Below, one piece after another: positions 25,589 through 52,341 of a DNA stretch of 64,000 nt. Location of the stretch: NCBI RefSeq assembly GCF_018977255.1, contig NW_024704762.1, forward strand, positions 7,688,001 through 7,752,000, written 5' to 3'. Position 1 is the stretch's first letter. Every line of letters begins with the position of its first letter. The position numbers and the translations under genes are program-made. This DNA is from Callorhinchus milii (Eukaryota). A model generated the notes under the pieces. The model was not told where the DNA came from, made no database searches, and was given only the letters and a program-made list of their open reading frames with translations.

Positions 25589-25877
25589 NNNNNNNNNNNN
25601 NNNNNNNNNNNNNNNNNNNNNNNNNNNNNNNNNNNNNNNNNNNNNNNNNNNNNNNNNNNNNNNNNNNNNNNNNNNNNNNNNNNNNNNNNNNNNNNNNNNN
25701 NNNNNNNNNNNNNNNNNNNNNNNNNNNNNNNNNNNNNNNNNNNNNNNNNNNNNNNNNNNNNNNNNNNNNNNNNNNNNNNNNNNNNNNNNNNNNNNNNNNN
25801 NNNNNNNNNNNNNNNNNNNNNNNNNNNNNNNNNNNNNNNNNNNNNNNNNNNNNNNNNTAATTCTCCTCAGGTGAAGA

Positions 25878-27011
25878 ATGAAGAAATTGTACAAGACACT
25901 CTTTGAAATGATTCTGCTCATGATGGTCGGGTCTTTTGGTATACTCTTTCTACTGTGCAGTCCAAAGGAATCAGCCACACACAGCCACGTTCAAAAGGCT
26001 GCCCTCAGGCGTGTACTCCTCCCAAAGTCTACCGTGACCAAAGCCAAGATAACAAAAACGGGATCCGTCTGCAAAGTAAATGCCTCCGTTCTCCAGCTTC
26101 CCGGCTTCTCTGAGCAGCTAGCCCACATCCAGGACTATCTGAAATACAGGCATTGCCGGGCATTTGAACTGCTCCGCAACCTTCCTGACAAATGTAGGGA
26201 GGAAGTCTTCTTGTTGCTGGTGGTAAAATCCAACCTGTTCAACTATAATCAGAGGGAGATGGTGAGGAAGACGTGGGGCAAGGAGCGGGAGATACAAGGG
26301 GTAAGAATCCGAAGGATCTTCATCGTGGCCCAGACCCCAAACCTGCAGGAACGGGGTAAAGCGAACCAACTGTTGGAAATAGAAAACAAGGAGCACCAGG
26401 ACATCCTGCAGTGGGATTTCCTGGACTCCTTCTTCAATCTAACCCTCAAACAGTATCTGTTCCTCCAATGGATGGATGATTACTGCCCATCCGCCCAGTT
26501 TATCTTCAACGGTGATGATGACGTCTTTGCTAACACTGACAACATGGTGGAGTTCCTGTTGTCCTCTGGGTCGGGCCAGAAGCATCTGTATGTGGGATAC
26601 CTCATTTATGGCGGCGGGCCTATACGTGAGAAATGGAGCAAGTATTTCATCCCCGAGATAGTGACCACCTCAAAATCCTACCCATCTTATGTTGCGGGAG
26701 GGGGCATACTCATGTCGTACTTCACCTCCAAAGCCATCTACAAAGCTTCCCAGACTCTGGAGCTGTATCCCATCGATGACGTGTTCTTTGGGATGTGCCT
26801 GGAAAAGGCTGGACTGAGCCCGAAGTCGCACATGGGCTTCAGGACGGCTGGTGTCAGAGATCCATCTTCGAATCGCATATCCTTTGATCCCTGCTTTTAC
26901 CGCGAGCTCCTGCTCGTCCACCGCTTCTGCCCTTACGAGTTGTTGCTCATGTGGAAAGCAGTTCATGACCCCAACCTGAAGTGTAGCCTATCGCAGGACA
27001 CCCCAACGTAG
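25878..27011 (+). CDS. B3GNT3: UDP-GlcNAc:betaGal beta-1,3-N-acetylglucosaminyltransferase (GT31), B3GNT3-like, paralog a copy 1; single coding exon
   Basis: 377 aa; N-terminal TM; YRHCR, FLLLVVKS, R..VRKTWG, DILQWDFLDSFFNLTLKQ, FNGDDDVF (NGDDD is typical of B3GNT3), YPSYVAGGG, PIDDVFFGMCL; splice acceptor ttctcctcAG at 25870, with the ATG 7 nt into the exon. Confidence 0.9.
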   Translation: MKKLYKTLFEMILLMMVGSFGILFLLCSPKESATHSHVQKAALRRVLLPKSTVTKAKITKTGSVCKVNASVLQLPGFSEQLAHIQDYLKYRHCRAFELLRNLPDKCREEVFLLLVVKSNLFNYNQREMVRKTWGKEREIQGVRIRRIFIVAQTPNLQERGKANQLLEIENKEHQDILQWDFLDSFFNLTLKQYLFLQWMDDYCPSAQFIFNGDDDVFANTDNMVEFLLSSGSGQKHLYVGYLIYGGGPIREKWSKYFIPEIVTTSKSYPSYVAGGGILMSYFTSKAIYKASQTLELYPIDDVFFGMCLEKAGLSPKSHMGFRTAGVRDPSSNRISFDPCFYRELLLVHRFCPYELLLMWKAVHDPNLKCSLSQDTPT

Positions 27012-28034
27012 CGGACCTGCTGCCATCTCAACAAGTCGGTTCCACCTCCTAAACACAGAGAAACCAACCTTAACGGCCGTGGACCTGAGGCTTCAAAGGA
27101 ACGTTGGTGCCTCTCGAGATTGGTTGGAGTTTTTCTACCAGTGATTGACTGGGAGTTGTGAGTTTTGCACTGGGATAGTTGCGAATTCCTCGCCTCCACA
27201 ATGTACTGACTTGATTTGTCACATTGCCATTTAATTGTCAGTCTCGTTGAGACTCTATCTCTGAGGTTTACTCTGTGAATGGTCTTACATCTGTACAGTA
27301 GTGAGACTTTGGGAGGGGGTGGGCTGTCGTGGCTGGGGTGTGTGGGAGGGGATTGGGGGGAGATACGGTGGGGAGAGAGATACAGGGGATGTTGGTATAT
27401 TAATTCTAGACACCATTCTCCTGCGAATGATACAACTTGGGGAACATGAGAGCAAATATTGCTTATTGCCCTGCTTTTTAAAAAAATATACAGTATATCA
27501 TGAAAACTTAAAGCCACTTGATTATTTTTCATAAAGAAGGGGGAGGTGGGCATTATCCCAGTGCACACTCAGCAATGGCTAGACAGCTTCTAGTGGAAAT
27601 TTCCTTCAGTCTGGAATGAAGAGAGAGCCATCAACATCCAGTCGAACTAGAAGTACCTGAACTGCTGTGGTTTTAATACATGGTCGCCACTAGATAATCA
27701 TAATAATAATAATCCTTGCATTTGATATACCACTTTTCATGTCTGTGGATGGCTCTGAAAAGCACAGCATACCTCTACTCTGCTGCTGCTCAGTAATAAT
27801 GTATAATAATCCTTACATTTGATATAGAGCCTTATCACATCTTCGAGATGTCTCAAAGCGCTTCACAGAATATTCTGTAAAGTGGATTGACTGGGAATTT
27901 TGTGGGGAAACGCGGCAGCCAATTGCGCACAACAGGGTCCCACAAACAGTCGAGGATTGAGTGACCAAATTATTATTTCATGTGAGACTCCCCTTGGTGT
28001 ATTTACTGTGATGGGACAGTTGTCATCTGCATAC

Positions 28035-28590
28035 TGTTGGGATCTCAACTCCCATTGTTCGAGTCAAAAGACCAGACAATAAAGTTTTGTGGCTAACTCA
28101 GTTGATTCAAATGTAAGCACAGCAAGAATACGTGCAACATACACTACCCAGTCCTGGAGCAGTCAGCGAGCTTTGGCCCTCCGCCCCTGTGTGCCTGGTT
28201 CCCTGCTGATTCTGCTGCTTTATGTCAACAATCTTTCAACTTTATACCTTTTTGTTTATCCAATTATCAGGCACGTAGGCCTTTTGCAACTGGGCAAAGA
28301 GTCAAGCGCTCTGTTACTTCTGTTTAGCCCAAGAACCGGGCATTTTGATTGCAAAACAGCTTGTATCCTCCCAAGGCCAATGATTGTCTTACTTCAACAT
28401 TTCATATTGACCATTTCTTCTTAACCAGACAAAAATAACTTATGTTATTAACAGATGCTGAGTGATGATTCAAGTACAAAATGGTATTATCCGCCATTTT
28501 GATTCATATAAACAAAATTAACAACTTAACCTTTACAATTTTATTCAGCTCTGCCTTGAAGTGTTTCATTACATATATCATATTCTAACA
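28035..28590 (-). repeat. 3' LTR (556 bp)
   Basis: Direct repeat of 34485-35033; TG...CA termini; TATAAAG on the minus strand near 28245. Confidence 0.93.
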
Positions 28591-28906
28591 GTCCCCACCT
28601 TGAGGGAGAAAGATCCTTCTTGATCCCTCACACATGGCTATGTTTTTTCGCAAGGCGGCAAGTTCATAACATTGAAGTTTAGACTGCATCTTAGTAGTAA
28701 AGGGGCGAAGGTAGGTTAAAGCAATCAGTAAGATAAGTAGTACAATAAGATGAGCAATTACAAAGGCATACGAGAATAAAGTAATCAATATGACGCCCAT
28801 CTATTGATGTCAGGATTTGTTTTCGTCCATGAAGCCAGAAAAGGTGTCCGATCCACAGGAACCGCAATAATTCTTTCACGTTCTTGGTCTTTTGCGCCTT
28901 CAGCTT
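28591..28906 (-). pseudogene. env-like remnant (splice acceptor + transmembrane segment + tail)
   Basis: Acceptor tgcttgatttattttgcAG at 28907 just after the pol stop; hydrophobic ILITLFSYAFVIAHLIVLLILLIALTYL followed by a basic tail running into the PPT. Confidence 0.4.
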
Positions 28907-28937
28907 CTGCAAAATAAATCAAGCACAGTATCTTTAA

Positions 28938-31420
28938 TTATTCCTTAGCAGTTTTCAATTGATTAATATGATGCCATCGTCCAATTTTCCCATTTCCTTT
29001 TTTAGAGGAAATTGTATCAAATATACCGATGGATTGGCTTTGTCAATGATGGGAAATGGCCCTTTCCATTTAGGATCGAATGGCCCACCTTTGTTGCCAT
29101 AATCCCGAACCATTACGTTATTCCCAATTTGATATTCAAACGTTTTTACTGTTTTGTCAAAATGCTTTTTCGTTTGTACTGTAGATTTTCCCGTGTTAGT
29201 GGCTACAAAGGTATTGTATTTTCGTCACCCAATTTTCACTAACTACTCCAAGTGTCAGAGGGGTGCAGGTAGGTATGATACTATGGCCCAGAATGCGCAT
29301 TACCCTGCCTGTCATTGCCTGGTGCGGGGATATTCCGATAGTGGAATGGGGCATGGCCCCTAAGACCATCCAACACATTGGTAACATCTGAGCCCATTTT
29401 GTGGGATCCGCACAATACTTTTTCAATAACATTTTAAGGGACCTGTTTCCCCTTTCCACCACTCCTGACGATTGAGGGTGGTGGGCAATATGGAATTTCT
29501 GTGCTATTCCCAGCATATGTTGCAATTCAGTAAAGATTCATCCTGTAAGATGTGACCCCTGATCACTATCTGCCTGTACAGGCAGTCCCCACCTGCAGAT
29601 CACCTCACAAAGTAGTACCTTGGCCGCATATAGGGCTGTGTTAATGTGAGTGGGGAACGCTTTGATCCATTTGGTGAATTTATCCAGTACAACTAAGCAG
29701 TATTTGTATTCACCTTGTACTTGGGGTAAGGGGCTTATATAGTCAATTTGGAGGTGTGCCCAAGGACCGTCAGGAGGAGGAGCTGAAAGGACAGCCCTAT
29801 TGAATGAGGGACCTGGGTTGTGTTGAAGGCACACAAGACATCGTTGGGTGGTTGGGCCACATCTAATTGACTGCAGGCCACCATGCAGTGGTAAGAATCT
29901 TTGCAGTAGTGGAATCGGTTGACATGTGGCCACCTGTTGGGTGAGTGTGGAACAGATGGAATAAATCCTCCGAAAAGGGCGGATGGTACATACACAACCA
30001 AAGGCTTGTCTACGGCGCCTGCATACATCAAGACATGTCCGGTCCCGAAACACTCGTTGTGAGGTAGCCCATGAGGTAGGTTGTGGCAGAGGGCAATTCT
30101 GATCATGCCATGCTTTAACATTACAGTAGGGCTCCCAATGATTCTGGATTGAGACGAGATCATCGGTAGTCATTTTTTGTCTTTGGACCGCCATCACTTG
30201 ATATAGATCAGTTGGTGGTGTGGTCCGCCTGTGTATTTTCCCTTATGTGTTTGGAGTCTATTTTGGAATGTCCCTTCACTTTGGACAGACATAAGGGTGT
30301 CTGTCTATCCTGGAGAGTCTTCCAAATCGTCGCCAGGAGGGATCGATGGGTGAGGGCCTTCCCGTCAGGTACCATCTGAGCCCTGAGGTGTTCCTCTTTA
30401 GTTTCGGTAACAATCAAAATGTCATCAATGTATTGTAAAACCTCTGGACTTTTGCAGGGTCTAAGGACTTCAGTCATTCACTTGGGGAAAACAGTTATGG
30501 AGAGTTATGGAACCCCTGAGGTAACCTAACCCAGGGGTACTGGCGGTCTTGGAAAGTGAATGTAAATTTGTATTGGCCTTCTTTTTGGATGGGAATGCTC
30601 CAGAAACCATTTGAAATATCTAAGGTGGAAAACCAGCGACCCCCCCCTCCTCCACCCTTTGGGTACTTGGGACCAGAGAGTGGGAGAATCACTCACCACC
30701 GGGGAGGAAGCCGGAGCGATAGCATTCAATTTACGGTAATCGATAGTAAGACACCAACTGCCGTCAGGCCAAGTAGAGGAGTTGGTGGTGAAAGTGCCTT
30801 CTCGGATCACCCCTTGCTCTAATAAAGAGGAAATAGTGTCCTCCACATCGGGATGACTTTCGATGGGGATAGGATGCTGCTTAGCTGTCCCCTGGGACGG
30901 TCTGTTAATGCCTTTGTCCCCCTTTAGAAGGCCACAGTCATATTTATGGCGGGTGATCGCACTTAGATTATCAGCCAACACTTGCTGCACCTCCAAGTCT
31001 GTGTGTTCGGGTGGAGGGTAAGACTCAGGCTTTTTTACCGCGACGACAGACAATACATCAGATATCACGTGTGGGCCATAACCTGCATTATTGCCTCGCA
31101 CCCAAAGGCATTCGTTAGCATAATCTACAGTAACTGCGTATTGGCACATAGCATCAGACCCAAACAGACCTCGACCATTAGGCATAGGCATTGCCACCAC
31201 ATCTCGCAAACACATCTGGATGTTTCCAGCCATTAAATGAACCTGGCTTAATTGCATCGCATTCTGAGTCGCCCCCATTAAACCCACTTAAAGATTCCCA
31301 TTTCCCCCTTGGTTCCTGGATAGTTTTTGAGGTTCAGGGGTTTGTGAAATGGTGACATTCGCCTCAGAGTCAACCAAGAGCAATTGCTGAGGGGCCCCTT
31401 TGTACGCGAACGATGATACA
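28938..31420 (-). pseudogene. pro-pol of the provirus (frameshifted, internal deletion between RT and RNase H)
   Basis: Protease LLVDSEA; RT TIDYRKLN, TLDISNGFWSIPI, RLPQGFHNSP, YIDD; RNase H KVKGHS..NTQAD; integrase CLVC, LQIDYI, DSDQGSH, HPQSSGVVERGN; GPF module PKWKGPFPI..WHHINQLK, TAA at 28938-28940. Confidence 0.88.
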
Positions 31421-32171
31421 AGGACGATTATCCCGAGTTGGGAGGAACTTAATGCATCCCGAGCTCGGGCTCGCAGGGCCCCAGATCCTGTCAATGTGGC
31501 ACCTCCGTTGGAGGAGCGTAAGGGGTGGTGGAATTAACTTCTGCCACCTGACGAGTAGAGCTCCCCCCCGCGTAACCTGCTTGGCAGTTAATAACACCAC
31601 AAGTTTTTCCAATGTATCTTGTAACGGGTCTGGGCGTTTGGAGCCACCTGTTGGCTGATCAGGATAATCCCTGGACTAGTGTCCATCCCGTCCGCAATGG
31701 TAACAGGCGCAATCACTGGTCCCTTGTCCAGCGTCAGCGCGCCGGAACCCGGTGCCGTTTCGTCGACCACGTCCGCGGCCAAAACCCGCTCTATTTGACT
31801 TTCAGTTAGAGTGTGAGGGGTCCTCCACCTCACACACTTGCTTTTTCACCTGCACTTCACAGCGCCTAACCTAGTTTATCAGCCTGACAGACTTTAACCA
31901 ACAACTCATCCCAAAGGGTCTTAGTGGACACTGAGGCCAAGACCCCAAGCGCGGTTTTAGTCTTTTCACTCAGCTTATCCAAAAAGGTTCGCTTATATTG
32001 GCGGGAGTCTCGGAATGTCATGCCCACCTGTGCATTTTGCTGGGACAGTTCGTAAGTCTGATGGAGGCAAGCCTCAAACATTTGAGTTGTTTCACCCCTT
32101 CTTTGGGGTGCATTGATGTACCTGATCCATGACATTCAAATTATTCAGCGCCAGCACATTTAGAATGTCAT

Positions 32172-32785
32172 TTAGAACTTCTCCGCCACTTCCTCACCCC
32201 TCAGACCGCTGAAACTCTTGTTCATGCCTTCATCACATCCAAGCTCGTCTATGCAAACGTCCTGCTTGTCGGCCTTCCCGACTCCTCCCTCCATAGACTG
32301 CAGATAATCCACAACTCTGCAGCCCATGTCCTCTCCCGCACCAAACTCCGTGACCCCATCTCCCCCATTCTCGCCCGTCCTCACCTACAAAACCCTCCAT
32401 GGCCTCGCCCCACCCTACTTCTGCGACTTCCTAACCCCCTATCAACCCTCCCACTCCCTCCGCTCAACTGGCTCCGACTTGCTCTATGTCCCCTGACCCA
32501 CCCGCCCCACTATTGGCGGGAGAACCTTCAGTCACTCTGCCCCCAACCTCTGGAATTCCATCCCCCAGTCACTCCGCCTCACCCCCTCCTTAGCCTCCTT
32601 CAAGTCCCGCCTCAAGACCTTCCTCTTCGACCATGCCATCGGCCACCTCCCCCCTTCCCCTCCCCTCTCTTCTCCCCCCCCNGATCCCAGCTCGGGTCTG
32701 CAATGCTGTACATTGTCCAGCGCCTTGGGACGTCCTCCCGACATGAAAGGCGCTATACAAATGTAATCTTGTTGTTGTTGTTGTT
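32172..32785 (+). mobile_element. L2 3' fragment nested in proviral gag
   Basis: gctgaaactcttgttcatgccttcatcacatcc...gggacgtcctcccgacatgaaaggcgc + (TTG)n tail. Confidence 0.85.
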
Positions 32786-33531
32786 CGTGTTGGGTGGCGG
32801 CAGGCAACCGAGTAGCCGCTTGCAACTGTCCTTTAATGTTAGGCATTGAAGGCAGTTAGGAGCGCTCGTTTGCAATTAGAGGCGGACAATTCTGGGTGAG
32901 TAGCGACAAAGTAGTCCCGCGTATTTTGTAATTCAAGAGGGCTTCTTTCATCAGTAATCATAGAAATCGCCTGTACTAATGCCTGGCACTCACCATGGTT
33001 AATGGGTCTTTCCTCCTCATACAGGGCTGTTACGGCATGCGTTATGGGGTTAGTGCGGGCATTTCGATATACCACTTCTATCTTTCGGTGGCCCGGGCAT
33101 TGAGGCTTAATCGGGTTGCCCCCCAACAGTAGTTTGGCGTATCCTCGCGATAATTGGCCGCCTTATCCTCCAGGCTATCCCGCCCTACATCATAATCATT
33201 ATCTCCTCTCGTTACTGCAACTATGACTGCCTGACGTTGCCCTAGCTTACGCTGCAAATCTTTGATCTGAGCCTGGCATCTAGTATGATCGTCGGTTCCC
33301 GTCCCGATTTATTTTAATTCTTCTCCTGGCACCCCTCGAGGGTCACTCAGCTCCTTCTGCAATCGACTAATCTGCTGATCCTTTGCTCTCACTTTCCCTT
33401 TCTCTTTCTTTCTGTTCTTCTTTAGCTGCCCTTTGCCAAGTTAACAACAGCCTGCTGCTCCCCCACACGACAGTTCAATTCAGCAATTCTCTTGTACCCG
33501 ACCCCTCAACTCTCTTACAGTTTCTTGGTAT

Positions 33532-34086
33532 TGTTTGGATTTCCGATCCCACAGCCCAAAATTTGACTCGACAATCCAAATATGGTGTAGCAAGGTTTAT
33601 TATGAACAGAGTGAACACAACATGTATTAACATATTACAACGTCACGGAAAATCTTCCTTGTGATTCTTAAAGGGAACTCTCCAAACTGGTCTCTCTCTC
33701 TCTCTCTCTCTGGAGCCTTCCTGTTCTTCTAACCTAGAGGTGTGATAGTTATACCCTTTCTTCAAGTGTCCTTCCTATGGCCCCTCTACCCCTTCCTGAT
33801 ACAGTCACGTACTCACGTTGATCAATCATTTGGCTTGGTGCCAACCTGACTGAGTCTCCCCATGGTCTTCCCTTTGTCCTGTCTAAGATAGGAGATTGAT
33901 CAGTTTAGGGCTTTATCTGGTGCTTATTATTTTATTATGTGGGATCATTACTGTATTCCTTTTATGTGACTGGTTATTTCTTATTAGTATCCTAGTTTAA
34001 GTCCTCTCGTTTAAACAACTTGCTCATCAGTTGCTATTCTTGAGGGTTGCCTTTTGTCGCTTGGCAGGGCCTGTCAGAATCAAGCT
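33532..34086 (-). mobile_element. Possible second-family LTR fragment nested in gag
   Basis: Starts TG on plus; minus strand has TATAA (about 33750), (GA)n and AATAAA (about 33600) in LTR order; interrupts gag-like coding sequence. Confidence 0.4.
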
Positions 34087-34255
34087 ACGACTGTTTGTGG
34101 GACACTGCTGTGCGCAATTGGCTGCCGCGTTCGCCCACAAATATACAGTCAATTCACTTTACAGTGTGTTCTGTGAAGCGCTTTGGGACGTCCTCCCGAC
34201 GTGAAAAGCGCTATATCAAATGCAAGGATTATTATTATTATTATTATTATTATTA
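34087..34255 (+). mobile_element. Young SINE 3' part nested in the provirus
   Basis: SINE body with a long (TTA)n tail. Confidence 0.88.
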
Positions 34256-34484
34256 CATTTGTTTAATGTTTCATTCTTCTCATTTTTGACGCCTTCTTCC
34301 TTAAGGCATCCCGCTTGCATCTCTTTCTCAACCCTTTCTCGGGCTTGAGTATAAGGGTCTTGTGCACTCACTATACCCATTCCATTGCCTTTTACAGAAC
34401 CTTTAATCTTCTCCTCGTACTTTTCCCATGCCCTCGTCATATTGAATAATTTAGTTAGTCACTTGTCTGCCGCGGTTGCCAATT

Positions 34485-35033
34485 TGTTGGGATCTCAACT
34501 CCCGAGTCAAAAGACCAGACAATAAAGTTTTGTGGCTAACTCAGTTGATTCAAATGTAAGCACAGCAAGAATACGTGCAACATACACTACCCGGTCCTGG
34601 AGCAGTCAGCGAGCTTTGGCCCTCCGCCCCTGTGTGCCTGGTTCCCTGCTGATTCTGCTGCTTTATGTCAACAATCTTTCAACTTTATACCTTTTTGTTT
34701 ATCCAATTATCAGGCACGTAGGCCTTTTGCAACTGGGCAAAGAGTCAAGCGCTCTGTTACTTCTGTTTAGCCCAAGAACCGGGCATTTTGATTGCAAGAC
34801 AGCTTGTATCCTCCCAAGGCCAATGATTGTCTTAATTCAACATTTCATGTTGACCATTTCTTCTTAACCAGACAAAAATAACTTATGTTATTAACAGATG
34901 CTGAGTGATGGTTCGAGTACAAAATGGTATTATCCGCCATTTTGATTCATATAAACAAAATTAACAACTTAACCTTTACAATTTTATTCAGCTCTGCCTT
35001 GAAGTGTTTCATTACATATATCATATTCTAACA
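34485..35033 (-). repeat. 5' LTR (549 bp)
   Basis: Differs from the 3' LTR by a 7-bp indel and about 6 substitutions (counted by eye). Confidence 0.93.
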
Positions 35034-35508
35034 ATACTTTGTTTATTTGTTAACCCAGATCTCACAAAGCTGAGATGTATTAATTCTTGCTTCCTCTATG
35101 GATTCACCAGCGTATAAATCTTTGTAATTCCTATACCATGTCTGGTGAAGGTTGGATTTGTGCATTTTTGGAATGGAAAATAAACCTTTGAAGGGATTAT
35201 TCTGCTCCTTTGTCTGTCTTCCTCTTATACTTCTCTTGGTGAGGTAGAGTTCAGCCTAGCGTTTCCATTTCTATAGTGCCCTTCACACGGAATAGCATCT
35301 CAGAGCACTGCAGTGTGGCAGGGTTGGATGTCAAGCAAAGGGGAGCATGGGGTTGACCAGCGATGCGGTTGGAGAGATGAATCCTAATATACAGTCAATT
35401 CATTTTACAGTATATCCTGTGAAGTGCTTTGAGACATCTCAACAACGTGATAAGGCGCTATATCAACTGTAAGGATTCTAATTATTAGTAGTAAAGCATA
35501 GAGGAGGT

Positions 35509-37006: not shown

Positions 37007-38113
37007 ATGCCTAATTGCAGCAGGTTAGTCTTTCTGTTCCTTGTCACTTTGACTCTGGGTTTAATCTTTGTACTGTTTTTCATTGGGAGCTATAGCATTT
37101 CAGAATCTTGCCTGAGCCCTGTGTGGCACCCAAAATACACCCAGAGCAAATACAAGACGACAAGAGTAAGGTCCATCTGCAAAGTAAATACCTCCGTTCT
37201 CCAGCTTCCCGACTTCTCTAAGGAACCAGCCCAGCTCCAGAACTTTATGAAATACAGGCATTGCCGGGAATTTGAACTGCTCCACAACCTTCCTGACAAA
37301 TGTAAGGAGGACGTCTTCTTGTTGCTGGTGGTAAAATCCAACCCGTTCAACTATGATCGGAGGGAGATGGTGCGGAAGACGTGGGGCAAGGAGCGGGAGG
37401 TACAAGGGGTAAGAATCTGAAGGATCTTCATCGTGGCCCAGACCCCAGATGTGCAGGAACAGGGTAAAGCGAACCAACTGTTGGAAATAGAAAGCAAGGA
37501 GCACCAGGACATCCTGCAGTGGGATTTCCTGGACTCCTTCTTCAATCTAACCCTCAAACAGTATCTGTTCCTCCAGTGGATGGATAATTACTGCCCATCC
37601 GCCCAGTTTATCTTCAACGGTGATGATGACGTCTTTGCTAACACTGACAACATGGTGGAGTTCCTGTTGTTCTCTGCGTCGGCACAGAAGCATCTGTATG
37701 TGGGATACCTCTTTGAAGGCAACAAGCTGGTACGTGACAAACGGAGCAAGTACTATATCCCCTTGATATTGTCCACCTCAAATATCTACGCGCCTTATAT
37801 TGGGGGAGGGGGCATCCTCATGTCTTCCTACTCTGCCAATGCCATCTACAACGCTTCCCAGACTCTGCAGTTATTCCCTATCGATGATGCGTTCCTTGGG
37901 ATGTGCCTGGAAAAGGCTGGACTGAGCCCAAAGTCACATGATGGGTTCAGGACGCTTGGCATCAATGACCTGTTACGCAAAGGCAAAACTGAACAGCCCT
38001 GCATTTTACGCAAGCTCATGTTAGTCCACCGCTACCTGCCTCTCGAGTTGCTGCTCATGTGGGATGCTGTCAACAACCCCAACCTGAAGTGTGGCCATCA
38101 ACCCCATCCATGA
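37007..38113 (+). pseudogene. B3GNT3: B3GNT3-like paralog b with one in-frame nonsense codon
   Basis: Acceptor ctctcctcAG at 36999, ATG 37007 (MPNCSRLVFLFLVTLTLGLIFVLFF TM); TGA at 37418-37420 where paralog a has CGA (Arg); same frame continues with all GT31 motifs to 38113. Confidence 0.85.
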
Positions 38114-39039: not shown

Positions 39040-40470
39040 ACAACAACAACAACCAAATTACATGTGTTACAGCGCCTTTCATGTTGGGAGGATGTCCCAA
39101 GGCGCTGGACAGACAGAGTTACGGACCCGAGCTGAGGGTCGGGAGGGAGCGGGGAGGGCAGGGGGAGATCGAAAGCACGGTCGAAGAGGAGGGTCTTGAG
39201 GTGGGTCTTGAAGGTGGTGAGGGAGGGGTGAGATGGAGGGACTGCGGGATGGAGTTGCAGAGGGTGGGTGCAGAGTGGTGGAAGGCTTACCCGCTGATAG
39301 TGGGATGAGTGAGGTGGGGGACGTGAAGCAGGTCAGAGCCACCTGAGCGGAGGGAGAGAATAGGGTGGTAGGGGGGTTAGATGGTCGGAGAGGTCAGGGG
39401 GAGCAAGACTGTGGAGGGCTTTGAAGGTGAGGACCAGGATCTTGAACTGTATTCTCTGTGTGATGGGAAGCCAGTGGAGTCGGGTAAGGATGGGGGTGAT
39501 AGGGTCGCGGAGCCTGGTGCGGGAGAGGACACAGACTGCAGAGTTCTGGATGATCTGCAGCCTATGGAGGGAGGAGTTGGGAAGGCTGACAAGCAGGGAG
39601 TTTGCATAGTCGAGCCTCAGTGCAATGAAAGCGTGTATGAGGGTTTCAGCAGCCTGTGGTGTGAGACAATGTCGGAGTCGGGCGACGTTGCAGAGGTGGG
39701 GGAAGACAGATCGGGTCATGGCGCAGATGTGGGGTAGAAAGGATAGTTAAGGGTCAAACAAGACCCCAAGGTTCCAGACTGGCTTAGCAAGGTGGTGGGT
39801 TTCATACGGGTTATGGTGGTGGTGAGAGCGGAGGGGAAGATAGGTTCAAAGGTGTGGAGGGAGGGGTGGGTAGGGGCTGGGGTTGGAGGGGGAGATGGGG
39901 AGGGGGTAGCAGTTGCATTGGCAGAGGCAGCTGAGCAGATTCCCTTGACTTTGGATTCGAGTAAGTCCAGCTTCGCCTCGCAGTTGGCATTTGAGGTGAG
40001 GATGGGTGAGGCGTGAGAGAGTGGCCGGAGGAGTCGGTTTGTGATGGAGAAGAGGAGCCTGGGGTTGTCCTTGGAGTAGAACAATGATTTAGGGGAGGCG
40101 AGGGCAGAGTGGTAGGATTTGACACGTGCCTGGGCTTTAAGGGAGCGGAGGTGGCTGGTGTACCAGGGTGATTTGCGTGAGTAGGAGACAGTTCAGGAAG
40201 AGAGGGGAGCGAGGGAATTGAGAGTGGAGGAGGGAGCTGTGGAGAAGTTTGACTGAGGAGGATAGATCATTGCAGGAGGACGCCCAGAGGGGAAGGAGTT
40301 CAGATAACTCCGAGGCAGGCGAGAGAGAGAGGGGGGAGCAGTAGATAAGGAGAAGTTTGAGGGAAAGATTGGAGCGGTGATAGAGGAGGGGAAAGTTCCA
40401 GAGGAGCAAAGGGATCGTCTGAGCCGGGAGGGACGAGTTGTGAAATTAGCAGGCGATGCGGTGACTTAAT
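39040..40470 (-). mobile_element. L2 LINE with intact 3' tail, containing the unit 1/unit 2 junction
   Basis: (CAA)n tail at 39040, LHWLP and RLDYANSLL motifs; copy at about 54170-55605. Confidence 0.85.
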
Positions 40471-43400
40471 GTTAAGAGCACAAGTGTTTCTTGAGCCCTG
40501 TCCTGCTGCTGGTTCCATCCTTAAAATAAAGCATTGACCATCATCTATTGCACTTATTCAAGGACCCTTGTTTTTGTAAATTGAAAATGACGCAACTGGT
40601 TTGGGTTTGTAGAGTCCTGACTAGAAACTCAGATTGAAATGAGCAGCCAGGACATTGTGTTGACTGCGATACACTATGTACAGACCCACAGGCACACAGT
40701 CACTGAAGAGATAGAGGGGGATCTTATCCAGACCATTAAACCTTTTTTTGGGGGGGAGGGGCGCGGGTCAGCGAGAGAACGAGAGAGAGAGAGAGTGGGT
40801 AATGTTAGGAATTGGGGAAAGAGAAAATAAGCAGAGAGTAAAGAGAGGGGAGAGGCGCAGAAGGAGAGAAGAAAGAAGGGAGGAAGACAAAAGGGAAGGA
40901 TTGTTAGAAAATGTAATTGATTATTTCTCGTACAAAGGCTTGGGCAAACTGAGCTAACTGGAATCTAAGTAGGTAAAACAACATAGTTTGTCAGTGAGAG
41001 CATCGTATCTGTTGATTGATGAGTCATGAGCTGGATTGCGCTAGAGTCGCCCTGGAATACTGTGGACCCGCCTGCCTCAGGAACCAGACTGGAGACCGCT
41101 GCAGAGGGTGGGATCGATTCCGACACATCACCTCGGAGCCAGGAGACCCTCTTGCCTCACTCCTCTCCATGCCTCGCTGGGAGAAAGTGAGTGAGAGAGA
41201 GGGAGAGAGAGAGAGACAGAGACAGAAATGGAGGGTGGCAGAGTGGTAGTCATGTGCAGTGTCTATCACAACACCGTGTAGCTTCTGCTGTTTGCCTCCA
41301 CTCCATCAGGGCAACACACCTCTACCCGGTACACTGTGTGATCACATCAATTTAAGGAGAGGAGGTGGGGGGTAGTGCTTACGGTCACCTCACCCCTCCC
41401 CCTGGCTCGGGGTCAGACTCCGCCACTGTCAAGCGCTCCGGGATGCGATCCCCCCCCATGTTACTTAACCACGAGTTCTAGTCACTCAATCCTGAATCCT
41501 GACCTGCGTCACGTCCTCACCTTGTAGGACCTGAGGATGAATCCCATTTTTTCTCTGTTGCTCTCGGTCTATCTCAGGGGTTTTTCTCCCGGGGGAAAGA
41601 AACAAACAACAACAACTTGCGTTTGTATAGCACCTGTCACGTCGGCAGGAAGTCTGGCTTAGCAAGGTGGTGGGTTTCATACGGGTTATGGTGGTGGTGA
41701 GAGCGGAGGGGAAGATAGGTTCAAAGGTGTGAAGGGAGGGGTGGGTAGGGGCTGGGAGGGGGAGATGGGGAAGGGGTAACAGTTGCAGTGCCAGAGGCAG
41801 CTGAGCAGATTCCCTTGACTTTGGATTCGAGGAAGTCTAGTATCGTCTCGCAGTTGTCATTTGAGGTGAGGCGTGAGAGGGTGGGTGGAGGAGTCGGTTC
41901 GTGGTGGTGAAGAGGAGCCTGGGGTTGTCCTTAGCCTCCAAGATTGTCTAGGAGTAGAACGACGATTTAGTGGAGGTGAGAGCGGAGTGGTAGGATTTGA
42001 CATGGTCCAGCCAAATCTGCCGGTGGACAGTTAGATTTGATTTAAACCAGGTGCGCTTATCGGAACGCGCCTGGGCTTTAAGGAAGCGGAAAGAAGACCG
42101 AGGTCCACCCACAACAAAACCAACAACAACAAATTGCATTTGTATAGCGGCTTTCACGTCAGAAGGACATCCCAGGCTGGAGCGTCAGCGATTTGGACCT
42201 GAATTGGGGTTTGTGATCAGGAGGGAATAGGAGGCTCAGGCGAAGAGGAGGATCTTGAAGGAGGCAATTTTTTTTAAAAGTCGAATTCGCCATCTTCAAA
42301 TCCCACTAAAAACCTGCCTCTTCGACTGCATCCGGTCGTCTTCCCGATTCTCCCTCTTCTTGTCGTCTGACCCGACCACTGCCCAGCGCTCCGAAACGTT
42401 ATCCCACGCGAACGGGGAGATGTACGAATGCAAGTTGTCGTCGATGTTGACAATCCGCTCCCACAGGCTGGAATTCTGAGCCTCACTGGCGAGAGAACAA
42501 AAAAACAACAACACGTTTAACAAATGTGCAAGTATCCTTATGGCTTAAAAATTATTTTGAGCTTCCTGCTCCTGAACAGAAAGGGTTAACGCAACAGCTA
42601 CCTCTGCTGCTTTCTGCAGATTTGCCTCACAGGTATGCTGGTTGCGAGTTAAAGTGGAGGCTACGAGATCCGACAGATTACAATCCTTGTGGCTAGCGAT
42701 TGTTTTCAGCCGCTTTCAATCAGCTAGAGTTTAAGGTTTATCGTGCCGGTGCCAGCAAATTGACTGTTTCTGTCGACAAGCCAACTGCGGAGTGGAGCGC
42801 TCGTTGTGTCCCATTATCCAGTTCTCAGAGAGAGCTTTCCAGTTTTCTGATACTGAAAGGTAATCGCATAATTACCTACACTTGGCACCGGGTATGTTCT
42901 CTTTCCTTAATCGACCTTGGCCGCAAATTTCTAATTTTTCTAAACGACTTGTTGCAGGCAACCGGAGTCCGGCAATGATAATGTAATAATAATCAGAATC
43001 TGTGTATTAAGAGTCCTTCCCATTATCATTTTATGTTTCTGCTCTGGGTGTAGCTTGATTGCCATTTTGTAAAAACTTATTGGTGGTCTGTTTTCTTACT
43101 CCACTCAGTGTTGCTGTCTCCGTCGTTCATTCTTTTCTGATGTCTTTCGCTGACTCTCTCTCAGTCACCCTATCTCTATCTACCTGTTTGTCTGCTCGGT
43201 GAACAGACAGCAGAAAGAGAAGCTCTGGGATTCTATCCTCCCTGAGGGGCACTATATAAATGCAAGTTGCTGGTCTGACTTTCTCTGTGTGTATATATCT
43301 TATCTCTCTCTTGCCTTGTCTCTGTCTATACATCTCTCTCTCTCTCTTCTATCTGGATTTATCTGTTTCTGTGTGAAGTTTGGTAGAAAAAATAGAAAAG

Positions 43401-46400
43401 CAGATTATTTTCTAGATGGGGAGAGGTTAGGTCGTGTCAGTATTCAGAGGGATTTAGGTGTCCTTGTACACCAATCACAGAAAGTTAGAATGCAGGTACA
43501 GCAAGCAATTAGAAAGGCTAATAGCATGTCAGCACTTATTGAAAAGGAGTTAGAGTACACGAGTAGCAAAGTTTTGCTGCAATTGTATAGAGCCTTGGTG
43601 AGATCGCACCTGGAATATTGTCATCCTCAAAGCTTACTCTCCCACCTAGCTTAGTATCATCTGCAAATTTAGATATTTTAAGTTCTATGTCCTTTTCTAG
43701 ATTGATATAGATTGTAAATATTTGAGGCCCAAGCACTGATCCTTGTGGCACTCCACTCGTCACATCCCACCAATCTGAGAAGGACCCGTTTATCCCTACT
43801 CTCTGTTTTCTTCCCGTTAGCCACTCTTCGATCCATGCTAATACATTGCCTTTAGTTCCATGTGCCCTAATCTTGTGTAGCAGCCTTTTATGTGGCACCT
43901 TGTCGAATGCCTTCTGAAAATCTAAATATAGTACACTACTGGTTTCCCCCCCTATCTAATCTGCTAGTTACATCCTCAAAAAACTCTAAAGGATTTGTTA
44001 AGCATGACTTCCCTTTTGTAAAGCCATGTTGACTCTGCCTAATCATATTATGGTCCTAAGTATCCCACTACAATGTCCCTAATTAAGGATTCTAGAATTT
44101 TCCCTACCACCGATGTCAGACTGACTGGTCTATAATTCGCCATCTTCTCTCTCCCACCCTTCCTAAATAGTGGTGTTACGTTTGCGACCTTCCAATCAAT
44201 GGGAACCATTCCAGAATCCAAGATCAATTTTGCAAGATCAAAAACAAAGCATCTGCTATCTCTACAACCACCTCTTTTAAAACCTGAAGACGCAGGCCAT
44301 CAGGTCCAGGGGATTTGTCATTTTTTAATCTCAACAGTTTCTCTAGTACTAATTCTTTACTGATGTTAATTTTCCTAAGTTGCTCACTAACATTGGCTTC
44401 TTGGTTCCCTCTACTTTTTGTAAGAAAGGATAAACTCGCTTTAGAGGGGGTGCAATGTAGGTTCACTAGGTTGGTTCCTGGGATGAGGTGGTTGATGTAT
44501 GAGCAGAGGTTGAGTATTCCTGCTCCTAATGTTCTTATGTTCTTTCTCTGTTTCTATTATTTTTCGGTCCTATCTCTTTGGATTTGACACTTCGCACAGA
44601 CAGCCTGGATCATCGGCAGACACCCTGCTGACCAAAAAAACAATTTGCAATTCTCTGTCCCCTTTTCAAATAACACAATTGTCTATGTGGCTTTGTGTAT
44701 CAGAGAATTCCACAATCTCACAGCAATGTAAGCAAATGATCTCTTATCTCAATTGTACCAGGTTTAGCTTTAATTTAAGACTATAATGCTTTGCATTGTA
44801 TTCTTCCGCTGGGGTCTAGCGTCCAGGGCTGCCATTAATCTAAAGATTATAAACCAGTTTTTTATTAACCTTTCACTAGAACTAATAACTACAAGTGGCA
44901 CTTCACCGAAGATAATATCTCAGGGATTAATCTAGATAAATATTGCCAGGTGGCTTACAAACTGAGAAGATATTTTCTAGCATCTCATGCAGGAGTTAAT
45001 AATAATAACCCTTAGCATAGCAGTGTCCCACAAACAGTCGTGGATTGAGTGACCAAATTATTATTATTTTTTCGAAGGGATTATTACACCTGGAAAAGCG
45101 ATCTGCTAGTCAACTAGCAACTGGAAGCCTTAACAATAACAGCACCCCAGAGTGCTTGCCAACTCACAGAAAACGATGACTCATAATACAATAGTTCAGG
45201 GCTTTGCATTGTGACAATTATTAATTTTGTTTGCTCTTCCCCTGCCTCCTTCTCCCCACTCCCCCCTACACACCCTCCCCCCTCCCCACTTTTCTCCTCA
45301 TTGCCATTGATCCACATTAGTGTGGGGTTTTAATTAATGTGATTGAGAAACATGAATGACGGTTTTGGTAAAACGCAAACAGGATGTGGTCAAAAAAATG
45401 TCACTAAATAATATTGAAAATATTGAAACTGGTTAGAACACTTGCTTGGTAAGCGAGAGGACAAGGGTTTGATTCTTGGTAGGGTGAAACCTTAGGCAAG
45501 TTTCCTTACAACGCACGCCTCTGTTTACCTAGCAGTAAGTAGGAACCCGGTTGTTAGTCGATTGATGGATCATTTCTCCAGGGGTAATAATCCCTTTAAA
45601 AAAATAATAAATTGGTCACTCAATCCACGACTGTTTGTGGGACGTCACTGTGCACAATCAGCTGCCGCGTTTTGCCCACAAAATACACGGTCAATTCACT
45701 TTACAGTTTATTCTGTGAAGCACTTTGAGACGTCTCGAAGACGTGAGAAGGTGCTACATCAAATGAAAGGATTATTACTATATAGGATTATTATAAAACT
45801 AGCTTGGATGGTTTTGCAAAACCTGTTTGCTCACTTAAAACATTCTGCCACATTTCTCCTCCTCTAAACCATTTAACTGCGTTAAGAATAGAGTAAGCAC
45901 GTTATTCCTGGATGAAAAGTATTCTGTGATGAGTTTGTGCATTGATGTGCATTGAGGATATTGCTGGAGTCTTAACCAGCTAAACACCCAAAGCTTACCA
46001 TGGGGAGCAAGCACTGCCTCCAAACAAAAACTTCCAATACCTGAAAGGTTCATAACGAATGCCCCTTTTTAACAGATAATTTATCTTGCTAAACCACTCA
46101 ATCAACACTCCAATGGATCACAGCAGATTGAGACACTTCATGCAATATAACAATTGCTTTGTGGGTGGGCGGTTAAATACCGGTCAGTTTATTTATTGAT
46201 CTGAATTCGGAACATCTCCGGGGGAAAAAACGTAAGTGAAAGTGTTCTAGAAAGAAGTAGGTGAAAATATTCACCCCAGGACATGATCTGGAACAGTGGT
46301 GGGACAACTTTGGTTCTTGATTGTTCTTGATTGATAGCTACTGGAAACATTTATTTGACACACGCAGTCATCTAGAACACGGTGATGATTGACAGGCCAT

Positions 46401-48863
46401 TTTATGACTCATCCGGGCTGACTACAGCAGATCTAGACACTAGAGAATCATTGTTGGATGTCTTACAAGCTGAGCAACAACAACAACTTGGATTTATATA
46501 GCGTCCTCCACGCCAGACAGCGTCTCAGAGCGCTTTACGATAACGGATTCCGGGACCGAGCCGGGGGAGGGGGAGGAAGATTACCAAAGCGGCTTTTTGG
46601 GAGAGATATTGGCGGAGACGGGCGATGTGTCAGAGGTGGTAGAAGGCAGTGCTGGTGAGAGACTGGATGTGGGGGAGGAAGGATAATTGGGGGTCGAAAC
46701 TGCTGCCTAGGTGGCATACGGGTTCAGAGAGTTTTAGCGGGAGGTCGGGTAGGTGGAGGAGGTGAGAGCCGTGAGATTTTAGACATTGACGAGAGCCAAA
46801 GAGTATGGCTTCCGTCTTGTCAACGTTCAGCTGAAGGAAGTTTGCGCTCATCCAGCCCCTGAGATCTGACAGGCAGAACATCAGGGGACTGGGGGTCGCA
46901 AAGAGAGGTGGAAAAATAGAATTGGGTGTCATCTGCATACACGTGGAACTGTACTTTTCTGCAGTGAAGAACTATCACACATAACAACAAATCAGCACTA
47001 TCTCTGCTCACAGAGAGAGGAGATACAGGCTAGCTCAGAAAATAACCTTTGAGAACAGGAAGGAGAAGAGGGAAGTTGAAAAGCACTTTCTTCCCCTCGC
47101 AAGCTGGTCCTTGAAATGTGGAAGAAAATTTAAAATACAGCACTTTGCACTCCTCCCTGGAGCTGATATACATCAGAGTGGGTAATATCATGCTTGTGAC
47201 TTGCGTGAATGTTGGAGGCTATTTCCAAGTGTGGTTGGAAAAAATGTCACCAAAGAACTGTGGAAAATGCTGAAATGGTTTGGCATATTTTGCCTTAACC
47301 TAGAGGACATTGGTTTCAATTTCCGGGCAAGAACCTTAGGCAAGGTTCCTAACTCCACACGCCTCTGTTGACCTAGACGTAAGTAGGAACCCGGTTGTTA
47401 GTCGATTGGCAGATAGCTTTCCGGGGGTACTAATCACTTCAAAGCAAAAATGTGGTCACACGAACGATGACTGTCTGTGGGACACTGCTGTGCGCAATTG
47501 GCCTCCGGGTTTTGCCCCAAAAATATACAGTCAATTCACTTTACAGTATATTCTGTGAAGCGCTTTGACACGTCCTGAAGAAGTGATAAGGAGCTATATC
47601 AAATGCAAGGATTATTATTGTTAATAAGTAATAATAATGATAATAGTCCTTTCATTTGATACATTGCCTACAAGTAGGGAGGAGTAGGCATCCAATTTGC
47701 ACACAGCAATTGGTCAAACAGTGACAAATTTTACTGGCAGATTCTAGGCTTGGACACCTCGGTAGAAACTCTCTTCTCTTTCCTAATAGTGCCATCCACT
47801 TGAATGGTTAGACAGAACCCCAAACCATATTAAGATTTCTTGGAGACCTGGGGACCAAGAACGTTTGGGGTTCCTCCACAACCTGGAGACAAATAACCCC
47901 ACCCCTGTTGGTTGCATTAGACAAGTGATATAATAATAATCCTTGCATTTGATATAGCGCTTTTCATGTCTTCTAAATGTCTCAAAGCGCTTCACAGAAT
48001 ATACTGTAAAGTGAATTGACTATATATTTGTGGACGAAACGCGGCAGCCAATTAGTACAGCAGTGTTCCACAAACAGTTGTGGATTGAGTGACCAAATTA
48101 TTATTATTATTATTTTTATTATTGTAAACTTTTGGGACTGACCCTCCTTGTAGCTTCCAAACTAACAGGAGACACTTGCTGAACAGGTTTTACAGGAGGT
48201 CAGAGGAGGTTGGACTAATCATGTTGCTTAACATAACACTTTGGGTTAAATTCCTGTCATTTAGTCTCATTCTCTGAATTTGGCACACCTCTTGAAGTAA
48301 GTAAGCATGTTATATAAGGAAAGAAAGGTAGAAAGAAAGGTAGANNNNNNNNNNNNNNNNNNNNNNNNNNNNNNNNNNNNNNNNNNNNNNNNNNNNNNNN
48401 NNNNNNNNNNNNNNNNNNNNNNNNNNNNNNNNNNNNNNNNNNNNNNNNNNNNNNNNNNNNNNNNNNNNNNNNNNNNNNNNNNNNNNNNNNNNNNNNNNNN
48501 NNNNNNNNNNNNNNNNNNNNNNNNNNNNNNNNNNNNNNNNNNNNNNNNNNNNNNNNNNNNNNNNNNNNNNNNNNNNNNNNNNNNNNNNNNNNNNNNNNNN
48601 NNNNNNNNNNNNNNNNNNNNNNNNNNNNNNNNNNNNNNNNNNNNNNNNNNNNNNNNNNNNNNNNNNNNNNNNNNNNNNNNNNNNNNNNNNNNNNNNNNNN
48701 NNNNNNNNNNNNNNNNNNNNNNNNNNNNNNNNNNNNNNNNNNNNNNNNNNNNNNNNNNNNNNNNNNNNNNNNNNNNNNNNNNNNNNNNNNNNNNNNNNNN
48801 NNNNNNNNNNNNNNNNNNNNNNNNNNNNNNNNNNNNNNNNNNNNNNNNNNNNNNNNNNNNNNN

Positions 48864-49549: not shown

Positions 49550-49585
<36 letters not shown>

Positions 49586-49589
49586 AAAA
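48864..49589. repeat. Compound purine-rich satellite (AGAAAGAAAGGT, AGATAGAAAGGT, AGGTAGAAAGAAAGGT, GAAA units)
   Basis: Directly visible; ends about 30 nt before the B3GNT splice acceptor. Confidence 0.95.
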
Positions 49590-49627
49590 GTGTTTACTGT
49601 GGTCCTTTAATTCTCCTCAGGTGAAGA

Positions 49628-51785: not shown

Positions 51786-52341
51786 TGTTGGGATCTCAAC
51801 TCCCATTGTTCGAGTCAAAAGACCAGACAATAAAGTTTTGTGGCTAACTCAGTTGATTCAAATGTAAGCACAGCAAGAATACGTGCAACATACACTACCC
51901 AGTCCTGGAGCAGTCAGCGAGCTTTGGCCCTCCGCCCCTGTGTGCCTGGTTCCCTGCTGATTCTGCTGCTTTATGTCAACAATCTTTCAACTTTATACCT
52001 TTTTGTTTATCCAATTATCAGGCACGTAGGCCTTTTGCAACTGGGCAAAGAGTCAAGCGCTCTGTTACTTCTGTTTAGCCCAAGAACCGGGCATTTTGAT
52101 TGCAAAACAGCTTGTATCCTCCCAAGGCCAATGATTGTCTTACTTCAACATTTCATGTTGACCATTTCTTCTTAACCAGACAAAAATAACTTATGTTATT
52201 AACAGATGCTGAGTGATGGTTCGAGTACAAAATGGTATTATCCGCCATTTTGATTCATATAAACAAAATTAACAACTTAACCTTTACAATTTTATTCAGC
52301 TCTGCCTTGAAATGTTTCATTACATATATCATATTCTAACA
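51786..52341 (-). mobile_element. Solo LTR at the orthologous proviral insertion site
   Basis: Single 556-bp LTR flanked by ATAC on both sides (51782-51785, 52342-52345), with the same flanks as the full provirus. Confidence 0.93.

What the first reader, a model, noticed from the sequence alone, without database searches (positions are those of the whole stretch)
28035..35033. Endogenous retrovirus with foamy/lokiretrovirus-like hallmarks in a probable cartilaginous fish
The RT segment FSTLDISNGFWSIPI...FTFQDRQYPWVRLPQGFHNSP...YIDD closely parallels foamy virus RT (TLDLANGFWAHPI...FTWQGKQYCWTRLPQGFLNSP) rather than the MPFGL motif of Ty3/Gypsy. RNase H is retrovirus-type (KVKGH..N..AD) and integrase carries a GPF module. 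Gag starts with a long coiled-coil, the TSD is 4 bp, and the PBS loosely resembles tRNA-Ser. This combination recalls lokiretroviruses, the sister lineage of other retroviruses. As I recall, these were reported from lampreys, bony fishes, amphibians and reptiles, so a chondrichthyan member would extend the host range. The classification is inference.
Basis: partly seen in the sequence, partly recalled or inferred. Interest (0 to 1): 0.75.

Follow-up and report, generated by a model that had tools for sequence, protein, structure and literature searches.

The report
Chimaera retrovirus fossil, paramyxovirus-like envelope family
This is a broken retrovirus fossil in a chimaera-type fish genome: its enzymes group with already described elephant-shark retroviruses and not with lokiretroviruses, but the stub of its deleted envelope gene likely comes from an envelope family predicted to fold like the fusion protein of measles-type viruses, a kind of envelope so far reported mainly for loki- and foamy viruses.

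Summary
The provirus is real: minus strand, LTRs 34485-35033 and 28035-28590 (K2P 0.011), 4-bp target duplication, broken gag-pol, env almost wholly deleted. It is not a lokiretrovirus. RT and integrase trees put it with the published elephant-shark CmiERV lineage I (Han 2015, snakehead-retrovirus-like); Loki, foamy and Gypsy clades are separate, and AU tests reject joining it to Loki (RT p 0.033, IN p 5e-5). The primer site matches host tRNA-Arg(TCG), not Ser. True Loki copies in this assembly lie on small contigs that look like lamprey DNA (99.4% to a lamprey protein). One probable RNA run holds a GT-AG spliced transcript of the provirus; a recombinant solo LTR of the same insertion lies at 51786-52341. 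The scan reported the same F-type/Ig envelope pattern before in other shark-type genomes (e1-9971634).

The parts
34485..35033 (-). 5' LTR (549 nt)
35034..35037 (.). target-site duplication ATAC (other copy 28031-28034)
34467..34481 (-). primer-binding site complementary to host tRNA-Arg(TCG), decayed at its 3' end
34250..34440 (-). start of gag (charged, E/K/Q/R-rich)
   Evidence: same sequence in second family copy L065
34080..34250 (.). inserted high-copy host SINE-like repeat with (ATT)n tail
   Evidence: the label SINE is inferred from size, tail and copy number
33532..34088 (-). nested solo LTR of another, high-copy ERV family, partly alike to the CmiERV-I LTR
   Evidence: 72-80% to L067-L073; 83% over 209 nt to L044 LTR
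32790..33530 (-). gag, probable coiled-coil region and start of capsid, with stops and frameshifts
32988..32994 (-). splice donor (exon ends 32994, intron begins GTGAGT)
   Evidence: table 8 record 28
32180..32785 (+). inserted old host repeat, likely a LINE 3' fragment
   Evidence: 69-79% to several host copies; no Pfam hit, LINE label recalled
31634..32135 (-). gag capsid C-part and decayed CCHC zinc knuckle
31100..31440 (-). protease, decayed active-site motif at 31369-31371
   Evidence: no Pfam hit
30388..30993 (-). reverse transcriptase in three frame pieces, YIDD at 30421-30432, truncated just after it
30223..30363 (-). C-terminal remnant of RNase H, fused directly to the RT stump by a deletion of about 370 codons that removed the tether
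   Evidence: L046 pol residue 307 joins L046 RH residue 83
28947..30161 (-). integrase (zinc finger, core, GPF module), with stops and frameshifts
28906..28920 (-). env-type splice acceptor just after the integrase end (exon starts 28906)
   Evidence: same position in relatives L044-L047, L179
28588..28800 (-). env remnant: likely membrane anchor and tail of an F-type, Ig-domain env family
28591..28602 (-). polypurine tract, same as in CmiERV-I-clade relatives
28035..28590 (-). 3' LTR (556 nt)
51786..52341 (-). solo LTR of the same insertion in a duplicated block; recombinant of the two LTRs, crossover between LTR positions 359 and 371

Best explanation
The element is a defective endogenous retrovirus whose RT and integrase group with the elephant-shark CmiERV lineage I clade (published as snakehead-retrovirus-like, clade Huo), outside the Loki, foamy and Gypsy clades, and whose ancestor likely entered cells with an Ig-tipped envelope predicted to be of paramyxovirus-F type. 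Shown: LTR pair, 4-bp TSD, tRNA-Arg(TCG) primer site, PPT, gag-pro-pol order, deletions, nested repeats, tree placement, solo-LTR recombinant. Inferred: a retrovirus primed by tRNA-Arg integrated in the germ line; the family spread (at least 46 LTR matches), mostly collapsed to solo LTRs, and this copy lost tether, part of RT/RNase H and the env ectodomain, so it cannot copy itself. Inferred: within one pol clade two unrelated envelopes were used (gamma-type in CmiERV-I, F-type in the window's subclade), so at least one env exchange happened. Likely: the locus is still transcribed and spliced through the old env acceptor into a short RNA without an intact viral ORF.
For: RT tree, 76 rows: window with 8 own-genome loci incl. 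L044 at 100/95, inside canonical retroviruses 100/99, Loki 14 rows one clade 100/100; same under a mixture model, quick tree and with the host's own foamy-like loci added, which join foamy viruses 100/99 without the window. IN trees 100/99. AU: window+Loki rejected RT p 0.033, IN p 5e-5; window+foamy IN p 0.010; window+Gypsy RT p 0.004, IN p 0.008. L044 = CmiERV_Scaffold 2 family, placed with snakehead retrovirus by Han 2015. Env stub: profile of 15 distinct anchors from other loci scores it 16.7 bits, next best of 16 other targets 3.3; 0 of 1000 shuffles reach 18.9 bits; pairwise E 3e-5 to bamboo-shark P0233; nearest IN relative L177 keeps the same tail. Env family: Ig domain (Pfam ig E 2e-4), profile hits Loki Env at 38.8 bits, best of 425 scored shuffles 7.5; model of P0233 hits only pneumo/paramyxo F and foamy Env in the rows listed, best E 1e-9, Z up to 8.5. 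Spliced contig 32994>28906 at GT-AG.
Against: Only 154 RT columns survive; on RT alone window+foamy was not rejected before host foamy-like loci were added (p 0.14). Snakehead retrovirus itself is not resolved with this clade in any of my trees (one clade not rejected, p 0.44), so 'snakehead-like' rests on Han 2015 and a hand count (30 of 45 identical against 25 WDSV, 24 FFV, 23 Loki-Oja). The env stub is about 42 aligned residues of a hydrophobic segment; shuffles do not control for membrane-anchor composition, and the first genome-wide hit was E 0.14. The F-fold was predicted for a bamboo-shark homologue (mean pLDDT 57, pTM 0.39) whose own pol I did not see; Z 7-8.5 is middling for this size; Pfam Fusion_gly did not hit any piece; the Atlas feature search pointed, weakly, to TLV_coat clusters. 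The RNA label of run X5 is a guess and it is one run of one study.
Confidence: 0.8

Rival explanations
1. It is a lokiretrovirus, the first in a cartilaginous fish.
For: Env family homologous to Loki Env; integrase scores higher against Loki IN (43.5%, 164 bits) than snakehead IN (33%, 94 bits); relatives have tether plus RNase H.
Against: RT motif LPQG, not (C/T)PFG; RT and IN trees and AU tests exclude it from Loki; a Loki RT query scores this clade at 39-45% against 67-68% for real Loki copies.
Confidence: 0.02
2. It is a fish foamy-like ERV (CmiFLERV type).
For: Best PDB hits are foamy Pol; F-type Env is also a foamy trait (PMC11468914 abstract and passages); CmiFLERVs are published for this host.
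Against: Host foamy-like loci L214, L225, L228, L229 join foamy viruses 100/99 without the window; IN AU p 0.010; Gag has a CCHC knuckle, which foamy Gag lacks (passage).
Confidence: 0.03
3. Classification as above, but the 3' stub is only T-rich untranslated sequence or the tail of a gamma-type env, so nothing can be said about an F-type envelope for this family.
For: Short hydrophobic match; weak tblastx look-alikes to T-rich 3' regions of gamma-env relatives; no family copy with a longer env was found (1 match, itself).
Against: Those 3' regions and the gamma, Loki and snakehead anchors score 3.3 bits or less against 16.7; the SYAF...L..R...S.L pattern recurs in P0233; IN places the window among F-env carriers (87/92).
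Confidence: 0.15

Closest known systems
CmiERV lineage I of the elephant shark (Han 2015, PMC4422223; whole text and first part of Dataset 1 read)
   Same: Same pol clade (RT 61%, IN 63-66% identity to L044-type copies), LTR start TGTTAGAAT, PPT, 4-bp TSD, env acceptor position, host.
   Different: Different LTR family, tRNA-Arg(TCG) instead of tRNA-Ser primer, and likely F-type/Ig env instead of gamma-type env (TLV_coat E 1e-10 in L044/L046); four short words of this LTR/PBS were not found in that paper's supplements.
Snakehead retrovirus / clade Huo (Xu et al. 2018, PMC6001957, passages read)
   Same: Highest hand-counted identity over the 45-aa RT motif region (30 of 45); coiled-coil Gag with one zinc knuckle; arginine-type primer site (13 of 18 to host Arg-TCG; Arg primer recalled from Hart 1996, not held); its env weakly hits the same profile (6.0 bits, best of 121 scored shuffles 2.1).
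   Different: Not resolved as one clade in my trees; IN only 33% identical; no accessory ORFs seen; Ig domain not found in its env by Pfam.
Lokiretroviruses (Wang & Han 2021, PMC7947760, parts 1-3 of 4 and one supplement part read; 2022, PMC9040795, passages)
   Same: F-like Env with detectable homology; related integrase; dual RNase H in relatives.
   Different: RT and IN outside the Loki clade; LPQG motif; N-terminal Ig domain in Env. Both papers state no detectable Env similarity between Loki and canonical retroviruses; this env family is a counter-example.
Foamy viruses (Fernandez et al. 2024, PMC11468914, passages read)
   Same: Env of the paramyxo/pneumo-F structural class; LPQG RT motif.
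   Different: Separate RT/IN clade; CCHC knuckle present; env type I anchor with Ig head rather than foamy leader peptide and RBD.

Membership tests
Lokiretrovirus | RT falls in the Loki clade, sister to canonical retroviruses | tested here: not met
   (AU p 0.033)
Lokiretrovirus | RT motif (C/T)PFG(Y/L)xNSP | tested here: not met
   LPQGFHNSP against 7 Loki rows seen
Lokiretrovirus | Integrase in the Loki clade | tested here: not met
   (AU p 5e-5)
Lokiretrovirus | Env related to paramyxo/pneumovirus F | tested here: inconclusive
   ectodomain deleted in the window; stub matches an env family that is Loki-homologous and predicted F-like
Lokiretrovirus | Tether plus second RNase H | tested here: inconclusive
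   tether deleted here, present in relatives; shared by all retroviruses, so not diagnostic
Foamy / foamy-like ERV (clade Tu) | RT and IN group with foamy viruses | tested here: not met
Foamy / foamy-like ERV (clade Tu) | Gag without CCHC knuckle | tested here: not met
   decayed knuckle at about 31634-31720 aligned to the relatives' zf-CCHC
Metaviridae (Ty3/Gypsy) | RT/IN group with Gypsy; single RNase H | tested here: not met
   AU p 0.004 RT, 0.008 IN
CmiERV lineage I clade (snakehead-like, clade Huo) | Pol groups with CmiERV lineage I | tested here: met
   RT 100/95 and 99/94, IN 100/99
CmiERV lineage I clade (snakehead-like, clade Huo) | Clade groups with snakehead retrovirus | tested here: inconclusive
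   unresolved; not rejected, p 0.44; published placement in PMC4422223
CmiERV_Scaffold 2 family proper | Same LTR, tRNA-Ser PBS, gamma-type env | tested here: not met
Odin retrotransposons | RT sister to Loki, no env | not tested
   no Odin sequence was in hand; the window nests among vertebrate ERVs inside canonical retroviruses

The most novel reading that the evidence does not exclude
A non-foamy canonical retrovirus lineage of chimaeras, sharks and frogs uses an Ig-tipped F-type Env that is sequence-homologous to Loki Env and, more weakly, to snakehead retrovirus Env; with foamy Env this would make the F-type fusogen the ancestral retroviral envelope, with gamma-type Env a later replacement whose swap is caught here between sister subclades of one pol clade in one genome.
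Probability: 0.35. Interest if true: 0.75.

Novelty: new variant of a known kind. Interest (0 to 1): 0.45.

Why it matters
As a locus it is an ordinary dead provirus of a clade already reported from this host. What matters is the envelope. Wang & Han argued for independent env origins of Loki and canonical retroviruses because their Envs showed no similarity; a canonical-RT lineage with a Loki-homologous F-type Env bridges that gap and makes the origin of retroviral env testable with an Env tree across Loki, foamy, snakehead and this clade. The work also gives a practical warning: Loki copies in this assembly sit on contigs that look like lamprey DNA, so a genome-wide screen would wrongly extend Loki to cartilaginous fishes.

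Tried and rejected
PDB sequence search favoured foamy Pol only because closer RTs are not in the PDB. tRNA-Ser primer rejected. Searches for a longer copy of this family's 3' region found only the window; IN DNA search found one partial 94% copy and otherwise 65-72% relatives, 40 matches. Direct blast of the stub against gamma-type env gave nothing. Pfam and PDB sequence searches did not recognise the F-type env. Loki-bearing stretch L120 laid on 4 whole-genome-sized runs of the host label: no long piece covered it; contigs show presence, not absence, so this is not counted as evidence. Contig depth over the internal region was about half or less of the flanks in X1-X3 but is no copy number. 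The mixture-model careful tree and its AU test did not finish (quick tree used). Hart 1996 (snakehead genome) and Wang, Chen & Cui 2023 (cartilaginous-fish foamy virus) were not held. Literature searches for an F-type or Ig-bearing env in snakehead-like or shark ERVs returned no such paper; subscription journals and bioRxiv supplements are not covered, and a 2024 foamy-virus cryo-EM paper in Cell (recalled, not seen) may discuss Env homologues. Only 3 of 76 parts of the Wang & Han supplement were touched (one read, one search), and it is cut when stored. Rows left out of trees: 16 redundant rows of 92; subsets of 30-40 rows for AU tests.
Full report
Observation. The window holds an LTR pair at 28035-28590 and 34485-35033 that differs by 6 substitutions and one 7-nt indel, with TG...CA ends and the 4-bp duplication ATAC. 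The element reads on the minus strand: 5' LTR, primer site, gag, protease, RT, RNase H, integrase, a 360-nt 3' region, polypurine tract, 3' LTR. The quoted RT motifs are present and foamy Pol is the best PDB hit. All genes are broken. Against an intact relative (L046) about 370 codons covering the RT end, tether and RNase H start are missing. Gag is interrupted by a SINE-like repeat, a solo LTR of another family and an old repeat fragment. K2P distance 0.011 gives 25 My with the rate assumed by Han 2015 or 2.5 My with the mammalian rate; the decay of the interior suggests the sequence is older than that.

Family and host. The LTR has 46 matches in the genome. Of 9 other loci inspected, none carried the window's first or last internal bases; 5 had an exact 4-bp TSD, 3 one mismatch, 1 none. 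Partial internal copies are L043 and L065. More distant relatives (IN DNA 65-72%) include L044, whose LTR ends, PBS, PPT, gag start and env end read the same as CmiERV_Scaffold 2 in Han 2015; the host is therefore very likely the elephant shark. Han placed that lineage with snakehead retrovirus, and Xu et al. call this group clade Huo.

Primer. A pattern from the primer site found one host gene, tRNA-Arg(TCG). The window matches 14 of the first 15 nt, L065 17 of 18. CmiERV-I copies have the tRNA-Ser-type site instead (Ser label recalled).

Classification. In the Wang & Han RT alignment the 7 Loki rows seen have (C/T)PFG, whereas gamma, epsilon, snakehead and foamy rows have LPQG; by hand the 45-aa segment has 30 identities to snakehead, 25 to WDSV, 24 to FFV and 23 to Loki-Oja. 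Reference rows were fetched by motif: Loki, snakehead, foamy, epsilon, gamma, delta, beta; their labels rest on motif, length and source names, not on record titles. In a 76-row RT tree (154 window columns) the window joins 8 own-genome loci including L044 at 100/95, inside canonical retroviruses (100/99), with Loki one separate clade (100/100). A mixture-model quick tree agrees. The host's own foamy-like loci join foamy viruses at 100/99 and leave the window out. Integrase trees give 100/99 for the same clade. AU tests reject window+Loki (RT 0.033, IN 5e-5), window+Gypsy (0.004, 0.008) and window+foamy on IN (0.010) but not on RT alone (0.14). Snakehead retrovirus is unresolved relative to this clade (p 0.44).

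Envelope. CmiERV-I copies carry a gamma-type env (TLV_coat, ISD and CX6CC). The window's 71-codon hydrophobic frame (28588-28800) did not match it, but gave a weak hit (E 0.14) just downstream of another relative's integrase. That relative (L173) and L055 carry a different env: Ig domain, basic cleavage site and fusion-peptide-like segment, 26 matches in the genome. A profile of 15 distinct anchors (25 of 28 loci gave one; window excluded) scores the stub 16.7 bits against at most 3.3 for 16 other targets; 0 of 1000 shuffles reach it. Among 36 pol-bearing loci, 4 hit this env profile and 6 the gamma-type TM; the window's nearest integrase relative L177 is one of the 4, and the F-env carriers and gamma-env carriers fall in sister subclades, with moderate support. 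Homologues exist in bamboo sharks, sevengill shark, sawshark and a frog (7 hits). A profile of this family hits a Loki Env at 38.8 bits (best of 425 scored shuffles 7.5) and snakehead Env at 6.0 (best of 121 scored shuffles 2.1). A model of the bamboo-shark protein P0233 (pLDDT 57) matches RSV, hPIV3, henipavirus, hMPV F and foamy Env (E to 1e-9; Z 8.5, rmsd 5.3 over 221 residues). So the family likely used an F-type Env; this step is an inference from a short anchor plus phylogenetic context.

What the locus does now. It encodes no intact enzyme. Its LTRs still recombine: the solo LTR at 51786-52341 has the same flanks and is 3'-LTR-like up to position 358 and 5'-LTR-like from 372. The interior is held by 5 runs of 2 studies at half of its words or more. 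In run X5, guessed to be RNA, one 944-nt contig joins 32994 to 28906, exactly at a GTGAGT donor and the env-type acceptor conserved in relatives; X1-X3 are unspliced there. This is likely a spliced, short-ORF transcript; no function is implied.

True Loki in the assembly. A Loki RT finds 8 copies at 67-68%, all on small contigs. One RT is identical to, and its polyprotein 99.4% identical over 1354 aa to, a Lethenteron reissneri protein; 0 of 20 stretches match host repeats, while 19 of 20 control stretches match the window. They give no host-range extension. Wang & Han list Callorhinchus, Rhincodon and Scyliorhinus among screened genomes and no chondrichthyan among Loki hosts.

Comparison and novelty. 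It works like any retrovirus-derived provirus and belongs to the CmiERV-I pol clade, as a distinct Arg-primed family. It is not a member of Loki, foamy or Gypsy. F-like Env is published for Loki and foamy viruses; both Wang & Han papers report no Env similarity between Loki and canonical retroviruses. My searches found no paper on an F-type, Ig-tipped Env in this clade, with the limits given. The scan itself reported the same pattern in other shark-type genomes, seen only after my own env analysis; those are unchecked notes, not evidence. Interest 0.45.

Noticed in passing
G000 contigs C364, C466, C548, C556, C771, C909, C1182 (L078-L085, L108-L127): Eight young lokiretrovirus copies with long ORFs; one is 99.4% identical over 1354 aa to a Lethenteron reissneri protein, 0 of 20 stretches match host repeats and CpG o/e is mostly 0.7-1.0 against 0.46-0.66: likely lamprey DNA in the assembly. 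Many Gypsy hits on contigs C75-C1624 may share that origin.
   Followed up: yes
window 16433-41654 and 39298-56792: Near-identical (98.8-99.8%) duplicated blocks; the second carries the solo LTR in place of the provirus and lacks a SINE block and one galactosyltransferase paralogue. Recent tandem duplication or two haplotypes side by side.
   Followed up: partly
window 25875-27011, 37129-38096, 49771-50738: Cluster of single-exon galactosyltransferase (B3GNT-like, PF01762) genes; the provirus lies about 1 kb downstream of one, in opposite orientation.
   Followed up: no
window 33593-32994 joined to 28906-28563 (run X5): GT-AG spliced contig at depth 34 against 4-9 for unspliced internal pieces; X1-X3 contigs run through the donor unspliced.
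   Followed up: partly
window 28035-35033: LTRs differ by 1.1% although the interior has three nested insertions, many breaks and 81-87% identity to other family copies: either LTR gene conversion or late copying of an already broken RNA by a helper.
   Followed up: no
L045, L047, L062, L177, L179, L187, L188: Relatives with env reduced to 150-390 nt between integrase and PPT; L045 and L179 share the same length and L062 has 99.5% identical LTRs, suggesting spread of env-deleted forms.
   Followed up: partly
IN trees: Loki integrase is sister to integrases of coelacanth and frog ERVs of the window's wider RT clade (97/90, 100/97), suggesting that group as the source of the Loki integrase.
   Followed up: no
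L214, L225, L228, L229: Host foamy-like RT loci on large contigs (100/99 with foamy viruses), probably the published CmiFLERVs; L214 has a 494-aa open frame.
   Followed up: partly
L053: Epsilon/gamma-side ERV with 98.7% identical LTRs, long ORFs and gamma-type env.
   Followed up: no
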